A DNA stretch of 64,000 nucleotides. Origin: Escherichia coli. GTDB taxonomy: Bacteria; Pseudomonadota; Gammaproteobacteria; Enterobacterales; Enterobacteriaceae. Made by a program: the position numbers. The stretch is from NCBI RefSeq assembly GCF_003018115.1, contig NZ_CP027457.1, one strand, 5' to 3'. Below, piece after piece: positions 33,901 through 39,900 of the stretch; within the stretch, counting starts at the first letter, position 1, and each line of letters starts with the position of its first letter.

Positions 33901-36900
33901 ACAAATAATTGTACCAACAGATGGCCATAACCGTGTAAAACCTTCTGAAAACTTCATTAAGGTTGTACCAATGACCTCTGCAAGTATTGCACCACCAAGA
34001 TAAATATAAGGATTCATAGCATATTCTTTCCTGTTCAAACTGGAGAGAATTGTACTACAGTTTGAACTCAACTCACCTGTTTCATCATTGTGTACCCATT
34101 GATGTTCTTTTATATACCCTCAATACCCGTTTCATCGCGGCACTCTGGCGACACTCCTTAAAAATCAAATTCGTGCTCACCTTTCCTTCCCATTCTTCTC
34201 TGGTAGCGAACCGATAATACACCGTTCGCCAGACCTTACCATCAACGACCAGGATTCCTGCCCGCGCCATTTTAGCCGCAGCCTGATTTATGCTGGTTAC
34301 CGTTGCGCCTGTTACCGCGGCAACGTCCTGCGCACAGAATTTCTTATGAGTCCCCAGGTAATGAATAATTGCCTCTTTGCCCGTCATACCCTTGCTCCTT
34401 TCAGCCCAAACTTAGCTTTGATTTCTGCGATCTTCGCCAGAGCCTGTGCACGATTTAGAGGTCTACCGCCCATGACAGGAAGTTGTTTTACTGGTTCAGG
34501 TATAGCCTCACCACGGTTAATTCGTGCGGTCATACAGGACAGTTCATCGGCAGCCTTGCGCCGTAATTCCGCGTCAGTCAACGCATTAGCCCGCATGTTC
34601 TGATACAGGTTGGTAACCAGCCAGTAGTGCGCGTTTGATTTCCACGGATAAGACTCTGCATCCGGATACAGCCCGCGCTTCCGGCAATACTCGTAAACCA
34701 TATCAACCAGCTCGCTGGCGTTTGGCAGCCCGGCGGTAACGGATGCTTCTTCCCGGCACCAGGCGACAAACTGCCCGGGTGATGGCAGGAATGGTCGATT
34801 CTGCCGACGGGCTACGCGCATTCCAGCGTTAACCTGTTCCATTGTGGTGATCCCGTTTTCCCGAAAAGCCAGCACCCACTGGCGGCGGATTTCGTTCAGT
34901 TCATTCTGGTCACGGTTAGCCAGGCTCGCCGGGAAAGTTGCCAGTAACTGGCTGAACACACCGTTGATGATCTGCGCTACCTGCTGTACCTGTGGCTTTT
35001 CGTCGTACTGTTCCGGCATGTTGTTGGCGATCCGACGCATCTGCTCACGGTCAAAGTTAACCATCTGTGCGGCGATGTTTTTCATAGATCCACCCCGTAA
35101 ATCCAGTCAGTGTTTGTCAGGTCGAGTTTTGGTTTGCCGACTGTCACGCCAGCCTGTTGCTTGTTCCGGTTGATTTCGAGCTGGGTCCACTTGTCGCGGA
35201 GTTTGGCCGGACTCAGCACGTTACCGGACCAGAAGTTGTCCTGGCAGGCCCAGCGGAACAGTACACACATGTCGCGGTGGTTACGTCCATCACGTTCACG
35301 CATCAGACGGATATCGTTAGCCCACCCTGCAAAATTCGGTTTTCTGGCTGATGGCGCGATGGTCTTCACCATGTCAAACATCCACTCTGCGGCGGTCAGG
35401 TCTTCTGCTGTCCCCCACTTGCTGCCGCTCTGAATCGCAGCATCCGCTTTCACCACAGGAAGGTCGTTTTCTGGCAGGTCAGAGGATTCGCCAGAATTCT
35501 CGGACGAATAAGGTTTTATATTGTCTTTTGTTAGTTTGTCTTTTGTGTTTACCTGATTCGGGTAAGTGCCTTTACCTGATTTGGGTAAACTTTTCTTACC
35601 TGATTCAGGTAAATTTACCTCTTTCAGGTAAACTTTATTTTTCTTACCTGATTCGGGTAATTTTGACCATTCCCTGACCACATTATTAATGCCGATATTC
35701 CGCCCGCTCTGAATAAAAATCCCACGCTTTACCAGAACACTTTTTGCAGCAGAACACTTGTGCGGCAATATCCCGGTCAACTCGGAAAGTTGCTCGTTGC
35801 TCACCCAATCCAGTTTTTTATTAAAGCCATATGTTTTGCGCATGACAGCCAGGAAGACCAGAAGCTGGTGCTGTGTTAATCCGGCCAGCATTACAGCTTC
35901 CAGCAACTCATTTGCAATGCGCGTATAACCATCATCGAGATCTGCCACGCGCGGCTCCTTTTGTGCCGCATCCGGCACTGGAAAATTGAATATCTCAGCA
36001 GTGTTTGCCATAATTCCTCCCGCAATGAGTGTGTTACGATTTGCACCTGAAAGTCGGTTCTGTTGCCGCAGACCGACTTTCGCCATTTTTGAACCTGTCA
36101 TATTGCCCCCAGCATGGTGGTGACCATCGCCATCAATGGACCAGCCAGATCTGGGTCCACTCGAAACATCGACACAATGCCTTCACTCATCTCCTTCAGT
36201 TTCTGGTGGCGTGGTGCGTTGAGAATGACCGCCTGCTTTGCCTCACTGAGTTCCTTTTCCATTTCAGCCAGCCGAGCCATGAAGCTATCCTGCTCAACCA
36301 GGTGGCCGCGATATTCCAGCGGTAGTACCGCCAGAATTGCCGGGGTCAGTTCACGCACGTTATTTCGGTATTTTTCAGAATCGAATTTGTTATCGAGGAA
36401 GCGGAACAGCTTCTGGCGTGCACGACTGACATCATCAGGAAAATCGATGGTGCCGCCGCCCTGTGCTCGATACTCATTCACAATGAGTGCGGCAACTACA
36501 TCCTGATTATCTTCAGCAGACCAGGCGCGGACGGCATCACGAATTTTTTCGTGGCCTGGCACCTGTTTTATTTGAGAACGATTTATCACCGCAGTCGGGC
36601 TAAATCCGCTAGTCTGTTGGTATGTAAGTGGTTGCATAATCATCGCCTTATCAGTTAACGCCGCAGATTAGGCGGCAGAATTACTCGCGTTAAACAATGG
36701 TGCGAGGTCGGGACGAATATCTGCTGGCTTAATCTTTCCACCAGTGGCTGAGACAATTTTCATTACATAGCGGGCATCAATTCCGCCACCGTGTAGCCAA
36801 CGCCAAACAGTGGGCTGGGCTACACCGCATAGATCTGCCAGTCGTTTTTGACTACCTGTAATACTGATTGCGAGTTGAATGGTTTGATTTGTCATTATCA

Positions 36901-39900
36901 ATTCCTATTGGTATTACAATGAATGGATAATAGCAATGCGTATTAACCATGGCAATAGCAAAACGTGTTTTGACCATCAATACGCAAGCGTATAAATTAA
37001 AACTTATGAAAAAAGAAACTCTTGCTGATCGCTTAAACCTAGCGATGGAACAATCTGGGATGTCTCAAGGCGCTCTTGCAAAGGCGTCTGGCGTAGCTCA
37101 ACCCACAATCTGGAGACTGACAAGCGGCAACGCGCGCGGCTCAACAAAAATTGTTGAAATAGCGAATGCATTGGGTGTTCGAACAGAGTGGCTCTCATCA
37201 GGCATAGGCCCGATGAGAAATGACGGTCAACAATCAGGGAAGCCTACTGTCAACCATTCCAAATACTTCAAGATTGACGTTCTTGATATAGAAGTGAGTG
37301 CCGGGCCGGGAGTCATCAACCGTGAGTTTGTAGAAGTCCTACGCTCGGTTGAGTACTCGTTTGACGATGCTCGTCACATGTTCGATGGCAGGAAGGCGGA
37401 AAATATCCGCATCATTAACGTACGTGGTGACAGCATGTCAGGAACAATCGAACCAGGTGATCTGCTGTTCGTTGATATCACGGTTAAATCTTTCGACGGT
37501 GATGGCATCTATGCGTTTCTGTACGACGACACAGCCCATGTAAAGCGCCTGCAAATGATGAAGGATAAGCTGTTGGTTATCTCTGATAACAAGAGCTACT
37601 CACCGTGGGACCCGATCGAGAAAGACGAGATGAACCGGGTGTTCATTTTTGGGAAAGTCATCGGGAGCATGCCGCAGACCTACAGGAAGCATGGGTAGGT
37701 AGTATGTAAAGAATTACCTTTGGTTGATTTGTAATAGCTACCGATTACGTTATCGGTAGCTATAAGAAATTTTTATGTCTTTAACTGTGTTTATTTATTC
37801 AATACTAGTTGGACTATAGCAATGAAAGATAACAGACAAAAAGTCGTTCATTATAAAAAAGCAGTAATCCCACACAGCAAATCATCATTACAAAACATAC
37901 TACTTAGTATTATAGGTGAGGGCGGCGTTGCAGAAAAAGTACTTAGTAGACAAGAAAAAATAACACCTTCAGATGAAAATTCGGGGTATCGTTTCTTAAA
38001 TAAAAGCGACACATACAAAACTATACTTTTTGGGCAACTGGTTTTATTTGAAAAAGACAAAAGCCAGTCTCTATTAGAGCTTAGTGATAATGTTAAATTT
38101 TATGACATTAACTCCATCACGTCTAATGATATAATTATTGATGGAGATAAACGTAGTGACAAAAAAAGAGAGTTTGTAGATTCAATTTTATATTTTGGTG
38201 TACTAAACAACCATGTCATGATCGTTCAATCCACATCGCTTCGAGCAAGGGAGCTTGAGGCGCATTTGAATTGGCTAATTAATACATTCACAGATGAAAA
38301 AGAATCTGTGTTAATGCTTCAAGATAAGCCATCCGAAGAAACGATGAAAAAAATGGAGAAAGCACCAGCCAAGAGCATAAAAATTGGTGGATTACCCATT
38401 ACTTCAGAAGTTAAAAATTCAGAGAACCAAACACCCTCCTTTTCAAATGGTTCGGTGAAGACAATAAAATACCGCCCAATAGGGAAAGGAGGTGCGCTAC
38501 TAAAAGCATTTTTTGGCGATAACTGGGCAAATGATATAAACATTAAAGATTCATTAGATGAGGCCAATTTACAAGTAAGCCTCGAGATTACATACTTCAG
38601 AAAAACAAATGATAGCGGTCAAGCTGTTATAGACAGTATTGCTACCTCACTACGACATCTAGATGAGGATGATATTAGCATCAAACTTCAAGGCGGTGGG
38701 GAAATAACGGGAAAAGAGATAAAATTATCCGGAAAAATTAGCGTTGAACATAACAATGGCATTATTGATGAAAATGATTTATTCTTAAAAATGCATAAGT
38801 GGCTGTTCTCAAAACTTGATGCCGGAGAATTGGTTGCAAAATAACCTACCAAAAGGAGGGCGATAATGAAATCGAACATCATCCACCTTATTGGTATGTT
38901 GGTCTTCTATTTTGCTGGTTACTTTTTGTTCAAGTTAGCATTGGGCTATATTACACCGGGTGTTGTCCTAACAGCTCCGTGGGCTGTGGTTGGACTCATG
39001 CAATTGCCATTATCATATTGTATACAAGCCATTTTTAAGGCAAATGAGGCCAATGACCACTCGTCTTTAACCCCTAGTGAGGTTAGGCGATTAGTGCCAA
39101 TAGTCAAATCCAAGAGACTGAAATTGGTTTTATTATTAGCTTTCTATGTATTTTCAACTTTGTTTGTAATCTTGGGGTTAATAGCAAGCACAAATGATCA
39201 AGCCCTACTCTTCAGGGTCTTAAAAATTTCAGGTGGATTACTCTTTATTTCTCTCTATACCAGTGTATTCGTTCATAAAATAATGGTTGAGCTTCAAGAG
39301 TTTAAAGCGTTATTAAACCGAAGAGAATCAGAGAAGAAGGAAAGAGAGTCACTCCTTGATAGATTAAAATGACCCCCCCTCCCCGGCCGTCGTGCCGGGT
39401 TTTCTTTTGCCTCCCCTCATCACACACCGTTCAAAAAACCACCATAACCCCCGCTTCAGTTATCGCTATGCGATGCAAGTCACAAAATTAATTCCTTTTG
39501 CTATCAAACAGTTAATATCAAAATACATCAATCAATAGCAATAAGTATTGATATCACCAATAGCAATAGCTATTATTACCATGTCGCAACAACACAACGA
39601 TACGGCAACCACCTGATTCGCCGTTGCGATGACCGCTTAGATCCGCAGCTTGAATTTCAGCAGGCTCCGGGGAGTGCGAGGGGTGAAGCGGACGCGTGAA
39701 CGTCGGTGTGACCAGCTGAAATCAACTCAACACTTCATACCTCAGTCGCTTCAACGAGGCGGCTTAGTTATGACAACCGGCGGCCATCCACCGCCTGAAT
39801 ACGCGCAGAAGTCTCTATATGTTCAGCAGCCCAGCTTACGGGCAGGAGTTTTTATGGTTCATCAACATTACGGAACTCAGACCGTTAATCGCGGTGCCGT

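What the first reader, a model, noticed from the sequence alone, without database searches (positions are those of the whole stretch)
36098..36901. Rac-like YdaS/YdaT pair in the cro/cII positions of a lambda-like phage
The cro-position gene is a YdaS-family HTH protein and the cII-position gene is a 181-aa protein with YdaT-like motifs (NEYRAQGGG, LTPAILAVLPLEYR), rather than lambda Cro and CII. YdaT-family proteins have been reported as toxic or regulatory on overexpression; my match here is from memory of the Rac sequence.
Basis: partly seen in the sequence, partly recalled or inferred. Interest (0 to 1): 0.3.

Follow-up and report, generated by a model that had tools for sequence, protein, structure and literature searches.

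The report
Phi80-type Cro and CII regulator genes
These two genes are the lysis-versus-lysogeny regulators (Cro and CII equivalents, of the YdaS/YdaT protein families) of an intact lambda-like prophage in E. coli; this arrangement is already well known from phage phi80 and the Rac and CP-933P prophages, so it is ordinary.

Summary
Window 36098-36643 (-) encodes a 181-aa protein (179 aa from the second ATG). It scores far above threshold for Pfam YdaT_toxin (103.5 bits, cut-off 21). It is 66% identical to the phage phi80 cII product and 36% identical to Rac YdaT over 96 aa, and its model matches only the two YdaT crystal structures. Window 36668-36895/36901 (-) encodes a 75/77-aa HTH protein that passes Pfam YdaS_toxin (54.5 bits, cut-off 30).

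The pair sits where lambda has cro and cII. On one side are an S24 CI-like repressor and three operator repeats. On the other are lambda-type O and P. The prophage looks complete, lies at argU/fimZ (the DLP12 site), and is about 97% identical to inducible phages that annotate this gene as cII.

The literature already equates YdaS/YdaT with Cro/CII and rejects the toxin-antitoxin label (Casjens 2003, Jobling 2018, Jurenas 2021, Prolic-Kalinsek 2023, Wons 2025). The same 1.9-kb immunity region occurs in 716 of 5,426 complete E. coli genomes. Verdict: already known, low interest.

One side lead: an exact copy of the published YdaT box, TTGATT-N6-AATCAA, overlaps a conserved nin-region promoter. 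In the phages examined it is present with YdaT-type CII and absent with lambda-type CII.

The parts
36098..36643 (-). cII-position gene: YdaT-family, phi80-type CII (181 aa; 179 aa if started at the ATG at 36637)
   Evidence: Pfam PF06254 103.5 bits. PHROG 163 'CII-like transcriptional activator' 1.1e-66. 66% identity to phi80 CII and 36% to Rac YdaT. AF2 model matches the YdaT structures 3c4r and 8bt1.
36668..36901 (-). cro-position gene: YdaS-family HTH protein (75 aa from the ATG at 36895)
   Evidence: Pfam PF15943 54.5 bits. PHROG 35 'transcriptional repressor' 9e-24. 32% identity to Rac YdaS. PDB hits to Cro 3bd1 and XPH1 5w8y, E about 1e-3.
37006..37698 (+). CI-like repressor (HTH plus S24 peptidase domain), divergent from cro; 230 aa
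   Evidence: Pfam Peptidase_S24 and HTH_3. PHROG 4 and PHROG 6201 'CI-like repressor'. RefSeq and phage 4A7 annotate a 693-bp gene.
36929..36996 (.). OR-like operator region: three ~18-bp partly palindromic repeats spaced 25 bp apart (36929-46, 36954-71, 36979-96)
   Evidence: the repeat finder family D1. The position matches the annotated OR of phi80.
36927..36955 (-). pR-like promoter for the cro-cII-O-P operon (TTGCCA, 17 bp, TATTAT, with TG)
   Evidence: Consensus scan, 10 of 12 matches. Inferred function only.
36970..36998 (+). pRM-like promoter (TTGACC, 17 bp, TAAATT); its start site would fall at or next to the cI ATG, giving a leaderless cI mRNA as in lambda and CP-933P
   Evidence: Consensus scan, 9 of 12 matches. 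Analogy with PMC8630535. Inferred.
36884..36901 (.). YdaT-box-like palindrome TTGATT-TGTCAT-TATCAA (1 mismatch) lying over the cro start codon
   Evidence: two boxes with at most 1 mismatch in the window against 0.13 expected. Rac YdaT footprints the equivalent racR-ydaS region (PMC11879457). Not conserved in phi80, and weaker in phage 4A7.
36572..36589 (.). Degenerate box (4 mismatches) at codons 17-22 of cII; a possible remnant or weak CII site
   Evidence: The best box match near the cII start falls at this same codon position in 10 of 11 phages, with 1-4 mismatches. Weak in this window.
36659..36677 (-). GC-rich hairpin spanning the cro stop codon (GCCGC-CTAATCT-GCGGC)
   Evidence: Conserved in phi80, HK225, HK639 and CobraSix although their cro genes are unrelated to this one. 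Function unknown.
35986..36092 (+). oop/M3-like antisense RNA unit: promoter TTGAAT, 17 bp, CATAAT (35986-36014), then terminator hairpin 36049-36081 and a T run
   Evidence: I7; -24.6 kcal/mol, z -3.3. Aligns in position with the annotated phi80 M3 RNA and the HK639 M3-like RNA, with compensatory stem changes in other phages.
35082..36011 (-). Replication initiator O. The probable start is the ATG at 36011, behind GGGAGGAATT; the ORF is also open up to 36101.
   Evidence: Pfam Phage_rep_O. The N-terminus MANTAEIFNF matches the start of phi80 gp15 as translated, and lambda O as recalled from memory.
34384..35085 (-). Replication protein P (lambda type)
   Evidence: Pfam PF06992 208 bits.
30683..30711 (-). 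nin-region promoter whose -35 is the left half of a perfect TTGATT-N6-AATCAA palindrome (30694-30711), with -10 CATAAT at 30683-30688; upstream of ylcH/ybcN (ninB-like)
   Evidence: The -35 and -10 are annotated at the same place in phage 82 record X92588. Presence tracks CII type.

Best explanation
The two genes are the Cro and CII equivalents of a phi80-type immunity region in an apparently complete lambda-like prophage.

Inferred sequence of events: after infection or induction, a pR-like promoter next to the three OR repeats transcribes cro(ydaS)-cII(ydaT)-O-P leftward in window coordinates. The 75-aa YdaS-family HTH protein acts like Cro, competing with the CI-like repressor for the OR repeats.

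The 179/181-aa YdaT-family protein acts like CII. By homology it is a tetrameric factor with a POU-like HTH domain that binds inverted repeats of the TTGATT-N6-AATCAA type. It raises leftward, repressor-establishing transcription and damps lytic expression, which pushes the decision towards lysogeny.

What is shown here: family membership, fold, gene order, operators and candidate binding sites. What is inferred from phi80 genetics and from Rac and CP-933P biochemistry: DNA binding, the activator role and the effect on lysogeny. Toxicity on overexpression, where seen, is a side effect of a strong transcription factor and does not indicate a toxin-antitoxin function.
For: Pfam YdaT and YdaS hits are well above the curated cut-offs. 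PHROG names the families 'CII-like transcriptional activator' and 'transcriptional repressor'. Identity is 66% over the full length to the phi80 cII product, which itself scores 98.7 bits on PF06254. Identity is 95-98% to genes annotated cII in isolated or induced phages 4A7, 1W, D2, Perceval and the PhiR series.

The AF2 model (pLDDT 77) has five helices plus a long helix 6. Foldseek returns only 3c4r and 8bt1, the latter titled 'YdaT transcription regulator (CII functional analog)', at probability 1.0 and TM 0.65-0.70. The recognition-helix Arg (R81) is invariant in the alignment.

The gene order is cI, OR x3, cro, cII, oop-like RNA, O, P, ren. The prophage is about 97% identical over most of a 25-kb query (84-87% of it covered) to inducible phages.

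Literature: YdaS/YdaT are Cro/CII equivalents and YdaT is homologous to phi80 CII (PMC5917428, PMC8630535). YdaT is a tetramer that binds TTGATT-N6-AATCAA and activates a reverse promoter for the repressor gene (PMC9986795, PMC11879457).
Against: No experiment was done on this protein. No strong YdaT box lies at the cro-cII junction, where CP-933P and Rac have theirs; the best match there has 4 mismatches. A PRE-like promoter could not be identified with confidence. The protein has a disordered 28-aa N-terminal extension and two extra C-terminal helices that Rac and CP-933P YdaT lack, so details may differ. Sequence similarity to the solved YdaT chains is weak (E about 1e-3).
Confidence: 0.9

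Rival explanations
1. The pair is a YdaS/YdaT toxin-antitoxin module, as the Pfam family names say, and stabilises the prophage by post-segregational killing.
For: The Pfam names are 'Bacterial toxin YdaT' and 'Bacterial toxin YdaS'. RefSeq calls the product 'toxin YdaT domain-containing protein'. Ectopic Rac YdaS/YdaT expression is toxic (cited in PMC5917428, PMC11879457).
Against: The TA call came from a prediction algorithm and was not borne out experimentally (PMC5917428, PMC8630535: CP-933P YdaT is not toxic and the pair is not a TA system). Both proteins are HTH DNA-binding proteins. They occupy the cro and cII slots next to operators and replication genes. The phi80 homologue is annotated as the cII gene in the 1988 phi80 early-region record and in the 2012 genome record.
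Confidence: 0.03
2. The CII-position protein has been co-opted mainly as a regulator of host genes, as Rac YdaT acts on rcsA, and no longer has a role in the phage decision.
For: Rac YdaT binds the host rcsA promoter and reprogrammes the RcsAB regulon (PMC11879457). The immunity region is widespread in E. coli chromosomes, in 716 of 5,426 genomes.
Against: The prophage here appears complete and is about 97% identical to phages recovered as virions or by induction that carry the same gene. The gene keeps its position and operon partners. A host-directed role would add to the phage role and would not replace it.
Confidence: 0.05
3. The genes are inert remnants of a decaying cryptic prophage.
For: The insertion site (argU/fimZ) is that of the defective DLP12 prophage of K-12, and several DLP12 genes (emrE, ybcK, ybcN, rusA, quuD, a porin) are present.
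Against: Both ORFs are intact and 95-99% conserved across hundreds of genomes and in active phages. Operators, promoters and the oop-like RNA are intact. Long ORFs of the sizes expected for structural genes, together with lysis, recombination and integrase genes, are all present in the window.
Confidence: 0.02

Closest known systems
Phage phi80 gene 30 (Cro) and cII (records X13065 and JX871397)
   Same: The layout is identical: cI, three OR operators, cro-like gene, cII, M3/oop-like RNA, O-like and P-like genes. CII is 66% identical over the full length, including the N-terminal extension, the same recognition helix (SRARQKLFRFLDN) and the C-terminal two-helix tail. phi80 CII also scores as PF06254.
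   Different: The Cro proteins are only 28% identical, and phi80 Cro is borderline for PF15943 (29.8 bits against a cut-off of 30). The repressors and operators have a different specificity. The replication genes here are lambda O/P, not phi80 15/14.
CP-933P YdaS/YdaT (PDB 8bt1; PMC8630535, PMC9986795)
   Same: Same family and fold (Foldseek probability 1.0, TM 0.65-0.70, 26-28% identity). Very similar recognition helix (QKIFRWLD against QKLFRFLD). Same position between the Cro-like gene and O.
   Different: CP-933P YdaT is 141 aa and lacks the 28-aa N-terminal extension and the last ~40 residues. Its strong operator lies at the end of ydaS, where this window has no strong box. Its partner repressor is PaaR2, which carries a toxin-antitoxin cassette.
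Rac prophage RacR-YdaS-YdaT of E. coli K-12 (PMC11879457)
   Same: Rac YdaT footprints the region around the ydaS start codon, where this window has a 1-mismatch box.
   Different: Rac is defective, has a different repressor (RacR) and different replication genes (ydaU/ydaV). Its YdaT is 140 aa, and its YdaT box overlaps the ydaT start codon.
Lambda Cro and CII (PF05269)
   Same: Same positions in the operon and, by inference, the same roles. CII is also a tetrameric HTH activator whose site lies in the 5' part of its own gene. An oop-type antisense RNA lies downstream.
   Different: [quoted passage not shown] YdaT-type proteins bind inverted repeats, whereas lambda CII binds direct repeats (PMC9986795). 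Similarity to lambda Cro is marginal (E 0.004).

Membership tests
YdaT family (Pfam PF06254) / phi80-type CII (PHROG 163) | Profile HMM score above the curated threshold | tested here: met
   PF06254 103.5 bits against a cut-off of 21, E 8.4e-30. PHROG 163 E 1.1e-66 over 163 of 168 profile positions.
YdaT family (Pfam PF06254) / phi80-type CII (PHROG 163) | Fold: five-helix POU-like HTH domain followed by a long helix 6 | tested here: met
   AF2 model with pLDDT 77 and helices at 31-45, 47-60, 72-84, 90-106, 109-114 and 121-140. The only significant Foldseek PDB hits are 3c4r and 8bt1, at probability 1.0 and TM 0.65-0.70.
YdaT family (Pfam PF06254) / phi80-type CII (PHROG 163) | Long helix 2-helix 3 loop (9-23 residues) and a conserved Arg in the recognition helix (CP-933P R60, Rac R57) | tested here: met
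   The loop spans 61-71, 11 residues. R81 is invariant in the 25-sequence alignment and aligns with the Rac HRW motif and with CP-933P FRW.
YdaT family (Pfam PF06254) / phi80-type CII (PHROG 163) | Gene lies between a Cro-like gene and the replication genes, divergent from the repressor gene | tested here: met
YdaT family (Pfam PF06254) / phi80-type CII (PHROG 163) | Tetramerisation through helix 6 | not testable with these tools
   Only a monomer model could be made. Helix 121-140 is present.
YdaT family (Pfam PF06254) / phi80-type CII (PHROG 163) | Binds a TTGATT-N6-AATCAA-type inverted repeat and activates transcription towards the repressor gene | not testable with these tools
   Candidate sites exist in silico: 30694-30711 perfect, 36884-36901 with 1 mismatch, 36572-36589 with 4 mismatches. 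Binding was not measured.
YdaS family (Pfam PF15943) / Cro-like repressors | Profile HMM score above threshold; small single-domain HTH protein | tested here: met
   PF15943 54.5 bits against a cut-off of 30. PHROG 35 E 9e-24. 32% identity to Rac YdaS. PDB Cro 3bd1 and XPH1 5w8y at E about 1e-3.
YdaS family (Pfam PF15943) / Cro-like repressors | First gene of the rightward (pR) operon, directly next to repeated operators shared with the repressor | tested here: met
   Three operator-like repeats at 36929-36996, and pR-like and pRM-like promoters.
YdaS family (Pfam PF15943) / Cro-like repressors | Binds the OR operators in competition with the repressor | not testable with these tools
   Shown for CP-933P YdaS (PMC8630535). 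Not testable here.
Lambda CII family (Pfam PF05269) | Sequence membership in Phage_CII | tested here: not met
   No PF05269 hit at E <= 0.01 and no BLASTP alignment to lambda CII. Positive controls scored: the CII proteins of Klebsiella phage ST11-VIM1phi8.1 and of phiES15 hit PF05269.
Lambda CII family (Pfam PF05269) | TTGC-N6-TTGC direct-repeat boxes at PRE-, PI- or PaQ-like positions | tested here: not met
   Four exact matches in the window, all outside the prophage, and the count is at chance level.
Type II toxin-antitoxin system | A toxin with a cellular target, neutralised by direct binding of a cognate antitoxin | not testable with these tools
   No toxin-like domain or fold: both proteins are HTH DNA binders. 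The literature rejects the TA assignment (PMC5917428, PMC8630535).

The most novel reading that the evidence does not exclude
YdaT/phi80-type CII proteins may have a second, undescribed target. This is a conserved sigma-70-type promoter in the nin region, upstream of ylcH/ybcN-ninE-rusA-Q. Its -35 hexamer is the left half of a TTGATT-N6-AATCAA palindrome, which is perfect here at 30694-30711. Binding there would shut off rightward transcription towards Q. That would give this CII class a direct brake on late genes, functionally like lambda's CII-dependent paQ but through promoter occlusion.

Comparative support: the half-site cores TGAT and ATCAA are invariant in the seven sequences aligned, while the 6-nt spacer varies freely. 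Three phages with lambda-type CII lack the palindrome, and two of them share the homologous ybcN module. The same perfect site survives in K-12 DLP12, where Rac YdaT could reach it.
Probability: 0.35. Interest if true: 0.4.

Novelty: already known. Interest (0 to 1): 0.12.

Why it matters
For the finding itself, very little. It correctly recognises a common, already characterised alternative to lambda Cro/CII, and it shows that database names such as 'toxin YdaT' mislead.

The practical value is in annotation. This gene should be called a CII-like regulator (phi80 type) and its neighbour a Cro-like repressor.

The side observation would extend the known regulon of this CII class. It would also predict cross-talk between Rac YdaT and the DLP12 prophage in E. 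coli K-12. Both are cheap to test by gel shift and reporter fusion.

Tried and rejected
- NCBIfam gave no model for the 181-aa protein and only a sub-threshold hit for the Cro-like protein.
- Rfam, run with permissive E-value filters on 27-46 kb, found only the argU tRNA. It found nothing for the oop-like RNA, the cro-stop hairpin or the nin hairpin.
- I looked for a strong YdaT box at the cro-cII junction, where CP-933P and Rac have theirs. There is none with 3 or fewer mismatches. The best is a 4-mismatch site at cII codons 17-22.
- A PRE-like promoter could not be identified. The consensus scan found only pR-, pRM- and oop-type promoters, and my hand inspection of -10-like hexamers was inconclusive.
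- Lambda-type CII boxes (TTGC-N6-TTGC) are absent from the prophage.
- No convincing box lies upstream of int. The nearest is a 3-mismatch site at 43026.
- I considered the GC-rich hairpin at the cro stop as a nutR boxB. This is unsupported, because HK639, which carries an annotated putL-like antiterminator RNA, has the same hairpin.
- Papers on ylcH/ybcN and the Rac regulon papers say nothing about the nin palindrome.
- PADLOC gave no hits for the two genes in the rexA/rexB position, for ORF 30724-31233 or for the recombinase.

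
Full report
**What is in the sequence**

The interval 36098-36901 holds two adjacent ORFs on the - strand. The ORF at 36098-36643 is 181 aa from the first ATG. It is 179 aa from the second ATG at 36637, which is the form used by RefSeq and by the large database clusters. The ORF at 36668-36901 is 77 aa from a TTG. The likely start is the ATG at 36895, giving the 75 aa annotated in RefSeq. Both align with EEYLRQGGG and LIPAILAILPRELR of Rac YdaT from K-12.

**Family assignment**

The 181-aa protein hits Pfam PF06254 (YdaT_toxin) at E 8.4e-30, 103.5 bits against a cut-off of 21. The 77-aa protein hits PF15943 (YdaS_toxin) at E 1e-14, 54.5 bits against a cut-off of 30. PHROGs places them in phrog_163, 'CII-like transcriptional activator' (E 1.1e-66), and phrog_35, 'transcriptional repressor' (E 9e-24).

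Pairwise identity to Rac YdaT is 36% over 96 residues (E 5e-13). Identity to Rac YdaS is 32% over 63 residues (E 6e-10). There is no alignment to lambda CII and only a marginal HTH-level match to lambda Cro (E 0.004).

An AlphaFold2 model built on a 25-sequence alignment has mean pLDDT 77. It shows:
- a disordered N-terminus (residues 1-28);
- five helices forming the HTH domain (31-45, 47-60, 72-84, 90-106, 109-114);
- a long helix at 121-140;
- two further helices at 145-162 and 164-180.

Foldseek against the PDB returns only the two YdaT crystal structures, 3c4r and 8bt1 ('YdaT transcription regulator (CII functional analog)'). These score probability 1.0, TM 0.65-0.70 normalised on the target, and 26-28% identity. 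All other hits have E > 0.6. The recognition-helix arginine (R81) is invariant. It corresponds to R60 of CP-933P YdaT and R57 of Rac YdaT, which the papers show or argue to be needed for DNA binding (PMC9986795, PMC11879457). The Cro-position protein finds the Cro protein 3bd1 and XPH1 5w8y in the PDB at E about 1e-3.

**Context**

The genes sit in a textbook lambdoid immunity and replication region.
- A CI-like repressor with HTH and S24 peptidase domains runs divergently at 37006-37698.
- Between it and the cro-like gene lie three ~18-bp repeats spaced 25 bp apart (36929-36996).
- Consensus-type pR-like and pRM-like promoters are also there.
- Downstream of the CII-like gene come lambda-type O (PF04492) and P (PF06992), a ren-like gene, emrE and a large serine recombinase.

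Between cII and O, on the opposite strand, lies a promoter (35986-36014) followed by a strong hairpin and a T run (36049-36092; -24.6 kcal/mol, z -3.3). This matches in position the annotated M3 RNA of phi80, which is the oop homologue. The stem shows compensatory changes in other phages.

The window as a whole carries an apparently complete prophage. It has long ORFs of the sizes expected for tail, head, portal and terminase genes, plus lysis genes, Q, the nin region, bet/exo and int. It is inserted at argU next to fimZ, which is the DLP12 site. It is about 97% identical to inducible phages such as PhiR68_2 and PhiR34_1, which cover 84-87% of a 25-kb query.

**What it is**

The closest characterised relative is the cII product of phage phi80, not Rac. 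Identity to phi80 CII is 66% over the full length, including the N-terminal extension, an identical recognition helix and the C-terminal tail. The phi80 gene is labelled cII both in the 1988 early-region record and in the 2012 genome record, with the same order: cI, OR, gene 30 (Cro), cII, M3 RNA, gene 15, gene 14. phi80 CII itself scores 98.7 bits on PF06254.

Genes 95-98% identical to the window's are annotated cII or 'CII-like transcriptional activator' in phages 4A7, 1W, D2, 3W, Perceval, Turner and the PhiR series. The 1.9-kb immunity region occurs at 80% coverage or more in 716 of 5,426 complete E. coli genomes.

**How it most likely works**

The literature is explicit.
- Casjens (2003) and Jobling (2018, PMC5917428) identified YdaS/YdaT as Cro/CII homologues and argued against the toxin-antitoxin reading.
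- Jurenas et al. (2021, PMC8630535) showed that CP-933P YdaS competes with the repressor at the intergenic operators. They also showed that YdaT activates a PRE-like promoter and is homologous to phi80 CII, and that the pair is not a TA system.
- Prolic-Kalinsek et al. (2023, PMC9986795) solved YdaT: a POU-like HTH domain with helix-6 tetramerisation. They footprinted TTGATT-N6-AATCAA.
- Wons et al. (2025, PMC11879457) showed that Rac YdaT binds ATGATT-N6-AATCAA at the ydaT start. It also binds the racR-ydaS intergenic region and activates a reverse promoter for racR.

By homology, the 179-aa protein here is a tetrameric, inverted-repeat-binding regulator made from pR early after infection, and it favours establishment of repression. 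The 75-aa protein is the Cro-like antagonist of the repressor. Family, fold, position and operators are shown here. DNA binding, activation and the effect on lysogeny are inferred.

**Where this instance differs or remains unclear**

Compared with Rac and CP-933P YdaT (140-141 aa), the phi80-type proteins carry a predicted-disordered N-terminal extension of about 28 aa. They also carry a conserved C-terminal extension of about 40 aa, modelled as two helices.

I could not find a strong YdaT box at the cro-cII junction, nor a convincing PRE. The best match near the cII start falls at exactly the same place, codons 17-22, in 10 of 11 phages examined. Mismatches there range from 1 (ENT1: TTGATT-tcgatt-TATCAA) to 4 (this window, 36572-36589). 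This resembles lambda, where the CII site lies within the 5' end of cII. The evidence in this window is weak, and it is confounded by coding constraint.

A 1-mismatch box (TTGATT-TGTCAT-TATCAA, 36884-36901) lies over the cro start codon. This is the region that Rac YdaT footprints in Rac. It is not conserved in phi80 and is weaker in phage 4A7.

**Side observation: a YdaT box in the nin region**

The only perfect TTGATT-N6-AATCAA in the window is at 30694-30711, in the gap upstream of ylcH/ybcN (ninB-like). Boxes with at most 1 mismatch number 2 in the window against 0.13 expected (P about 0.013). On the rightward strand the left half-site is a -35 hexamer: TTGATT, 17 bp, CATAAT. The depositors of phage 82 record X92588 annotated exactly this -35 and -10.

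The same arrangement is present in these genomes:

| Genome | Palindrome |
|---|---|
| K-12 DLP12 | perfect |
| HK639, CobraSix | perfect |
| phi80, HK225 | TTGATA-aaacac-TATCAA |
| mEp237, Klebsiella phage ST974 | CTGATA-atatga-AATCAA |

In the seven sequences aligned (this window plus all of the above except HK225), TGAT and ATCAA are invariant while the 6-nt spacer varies freely. That pattern is typical of a protein-binding palindrome.

In the phage database, all 21 full-genome records that share this promoter region also carry the phi80-type CII. Lambda lacks the palindrome. Two phages have the homologous ybcN module, with a recognisable promoter-like sequence in one (ST11-VIM1phi8.1) and the downstream hairpin in both, but carry lambda-type CII (PF05269). 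These are Klebsiella phage ST11-VIM1phi8.1 and Cronobacter phage phiES15, and both lack the palindrome. Enterobacter phage ENT1 has a divergent YdaT-type CII (hhalign 99.1%, 27% identity) and does have the palindrome.

The link could still reflect shared ancestry of mosaic modules, and no binding has been measured. I give about 0.35 to the reading that this is a genuine CII operator that shuts off a nin-region promoter. I did not find this site mentioned in the YdaT papers.

**Rivals**

- A toxin-antitoxin function is contradicted by the folds, the context and published experiments (confidence 0.03).
- A purely host-directed role (0.05) or an inert remnant (0.02) is unlikely, given the intact, widely conserved genes in an apparently complete prophage that is nearly identical to active phages.

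**Verdict**

The thing itself is already known: a phi80-type Cro/CII pair of the YdaS/YdaT families. Interest is low, at 0.12. The only element that might repay an experiment is the YdaT-box palindrome in the nin-region promoter.

Noticed in passing
window 30683-30711 (also K-12 NC_000913 572285-572302; locus L016 6285-6302): A perfect TTGATT-N6-AATCAA palindrome, identical to the published YdaT box, forms the -35 and spacer of a conserved promoter upstream of ylcH/ybcN in the nin region. The half-site cores are invariant and the spacer is free in the seven sequences aligned. In the phages examined it is present with YdaT/phi80-type CII and absent from three phages with lambda-type CII, two of which share the ybcN module.
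   Followed up: partly
window 36884-36901: A second YdaT-box-like palindrome (TTGATT-TGTCAT-TATCAA, 1 mismatch) lies over the cro/ydaS start codon, downstream of the pR-like promoter. This parallels the Rac YdaT footprint around the ydaS start. It is not conserved in phi80 and has 2 mismatches in phage 4A7.
   Followed up: partly
window about 30648-30677 (- strand), just downstream of the nin promoter: A hairpin whose loop core CTGAACAAC is invariant across the seven aligned sequences, while the stems differ and partly covary (including G-U-compatible changes). It is followed by a conserved CTGCGC. Phage 82 record X92588 labels it 'possible regulator-binding site'. It looks more like an RNA element. 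No Rfam family matches.
   Followed up: partly
window 35986-36092 (+ strand): An oop/M3-like antisense RNA unit lies between cII and O. Its -10 (CATAAT) overlaps the O start codon, and its terminator hairpin ends a few bases short of the cII stop codon. Unlike lambda oop, it would therefore not overlap the cII coding sequence.
   Followed up: partly
window 36011 versus 36101 (- strand): The replication protein O is annotated in RefSeq and in phage 4A7 as 339 aa, starting at an ATG that overlaps the cII stop. The start of phi80 gp15 (and of lambda O as recalled from memory), a strong GGGAGG Shine-Dalgarno sequence and the embedded oop-like RNA all point to the ATG at 36011 (309 aa). The public annotation is probably 30 codons too long.
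   Followed up: partly
window 36659-36677: A GC-rich hairpin (GCCGC-CTAATCT-GCGGC) contains the cro stop codon. It is conserved in phi80, HK225, HK639 and CobraSix although their cro genes are unrelated to this one. It is absent from mEp237, PHB10 and the Klebsiella phages, where cro abuts cII. Function unknown.
   Followed up: partly
window 37822-38844 and 38866-39372 (+ strand): Two genes directly downstream of cI, in the position of lambda rexA/rexB. One encodes a 340-aa protein and the other a 168-aa protein with long hydrophobic stretches (by eye, not tested). They hit only PHROGs of unknown function (3482, 16807) and nothing in Pfam or PADLOC. They are candidates for a prophage-encoded exclusion or defence pair.
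   Followed up: partly
window 36098-36643, residues 1-28 and 145-181 of the product: phi80-type CII proteins carry a predicted-disordered N-terminal extension and a conserved C-terminal tail modelled as two helices (…GPLMxMVTSMLGxx). Rac and CP-933P YdaT lack both. By analogy with the C-terminal FtsH degradation tag of lambda CII (from my own knowledge, not checked here), the tail might control stability. This is pure speculation.
   Followed up: no
window 27369-28466, 33685-34071, 31903-33429: The prophage carries cargo typical of DLP12: an intact OmpC/NmpC-type porin gene between Q and the lysis genes, emrE (an SMR efflux pump) and a 508-aa large serine recombinase (ybcK-like) between ren and the nin region.
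   Followed up: no
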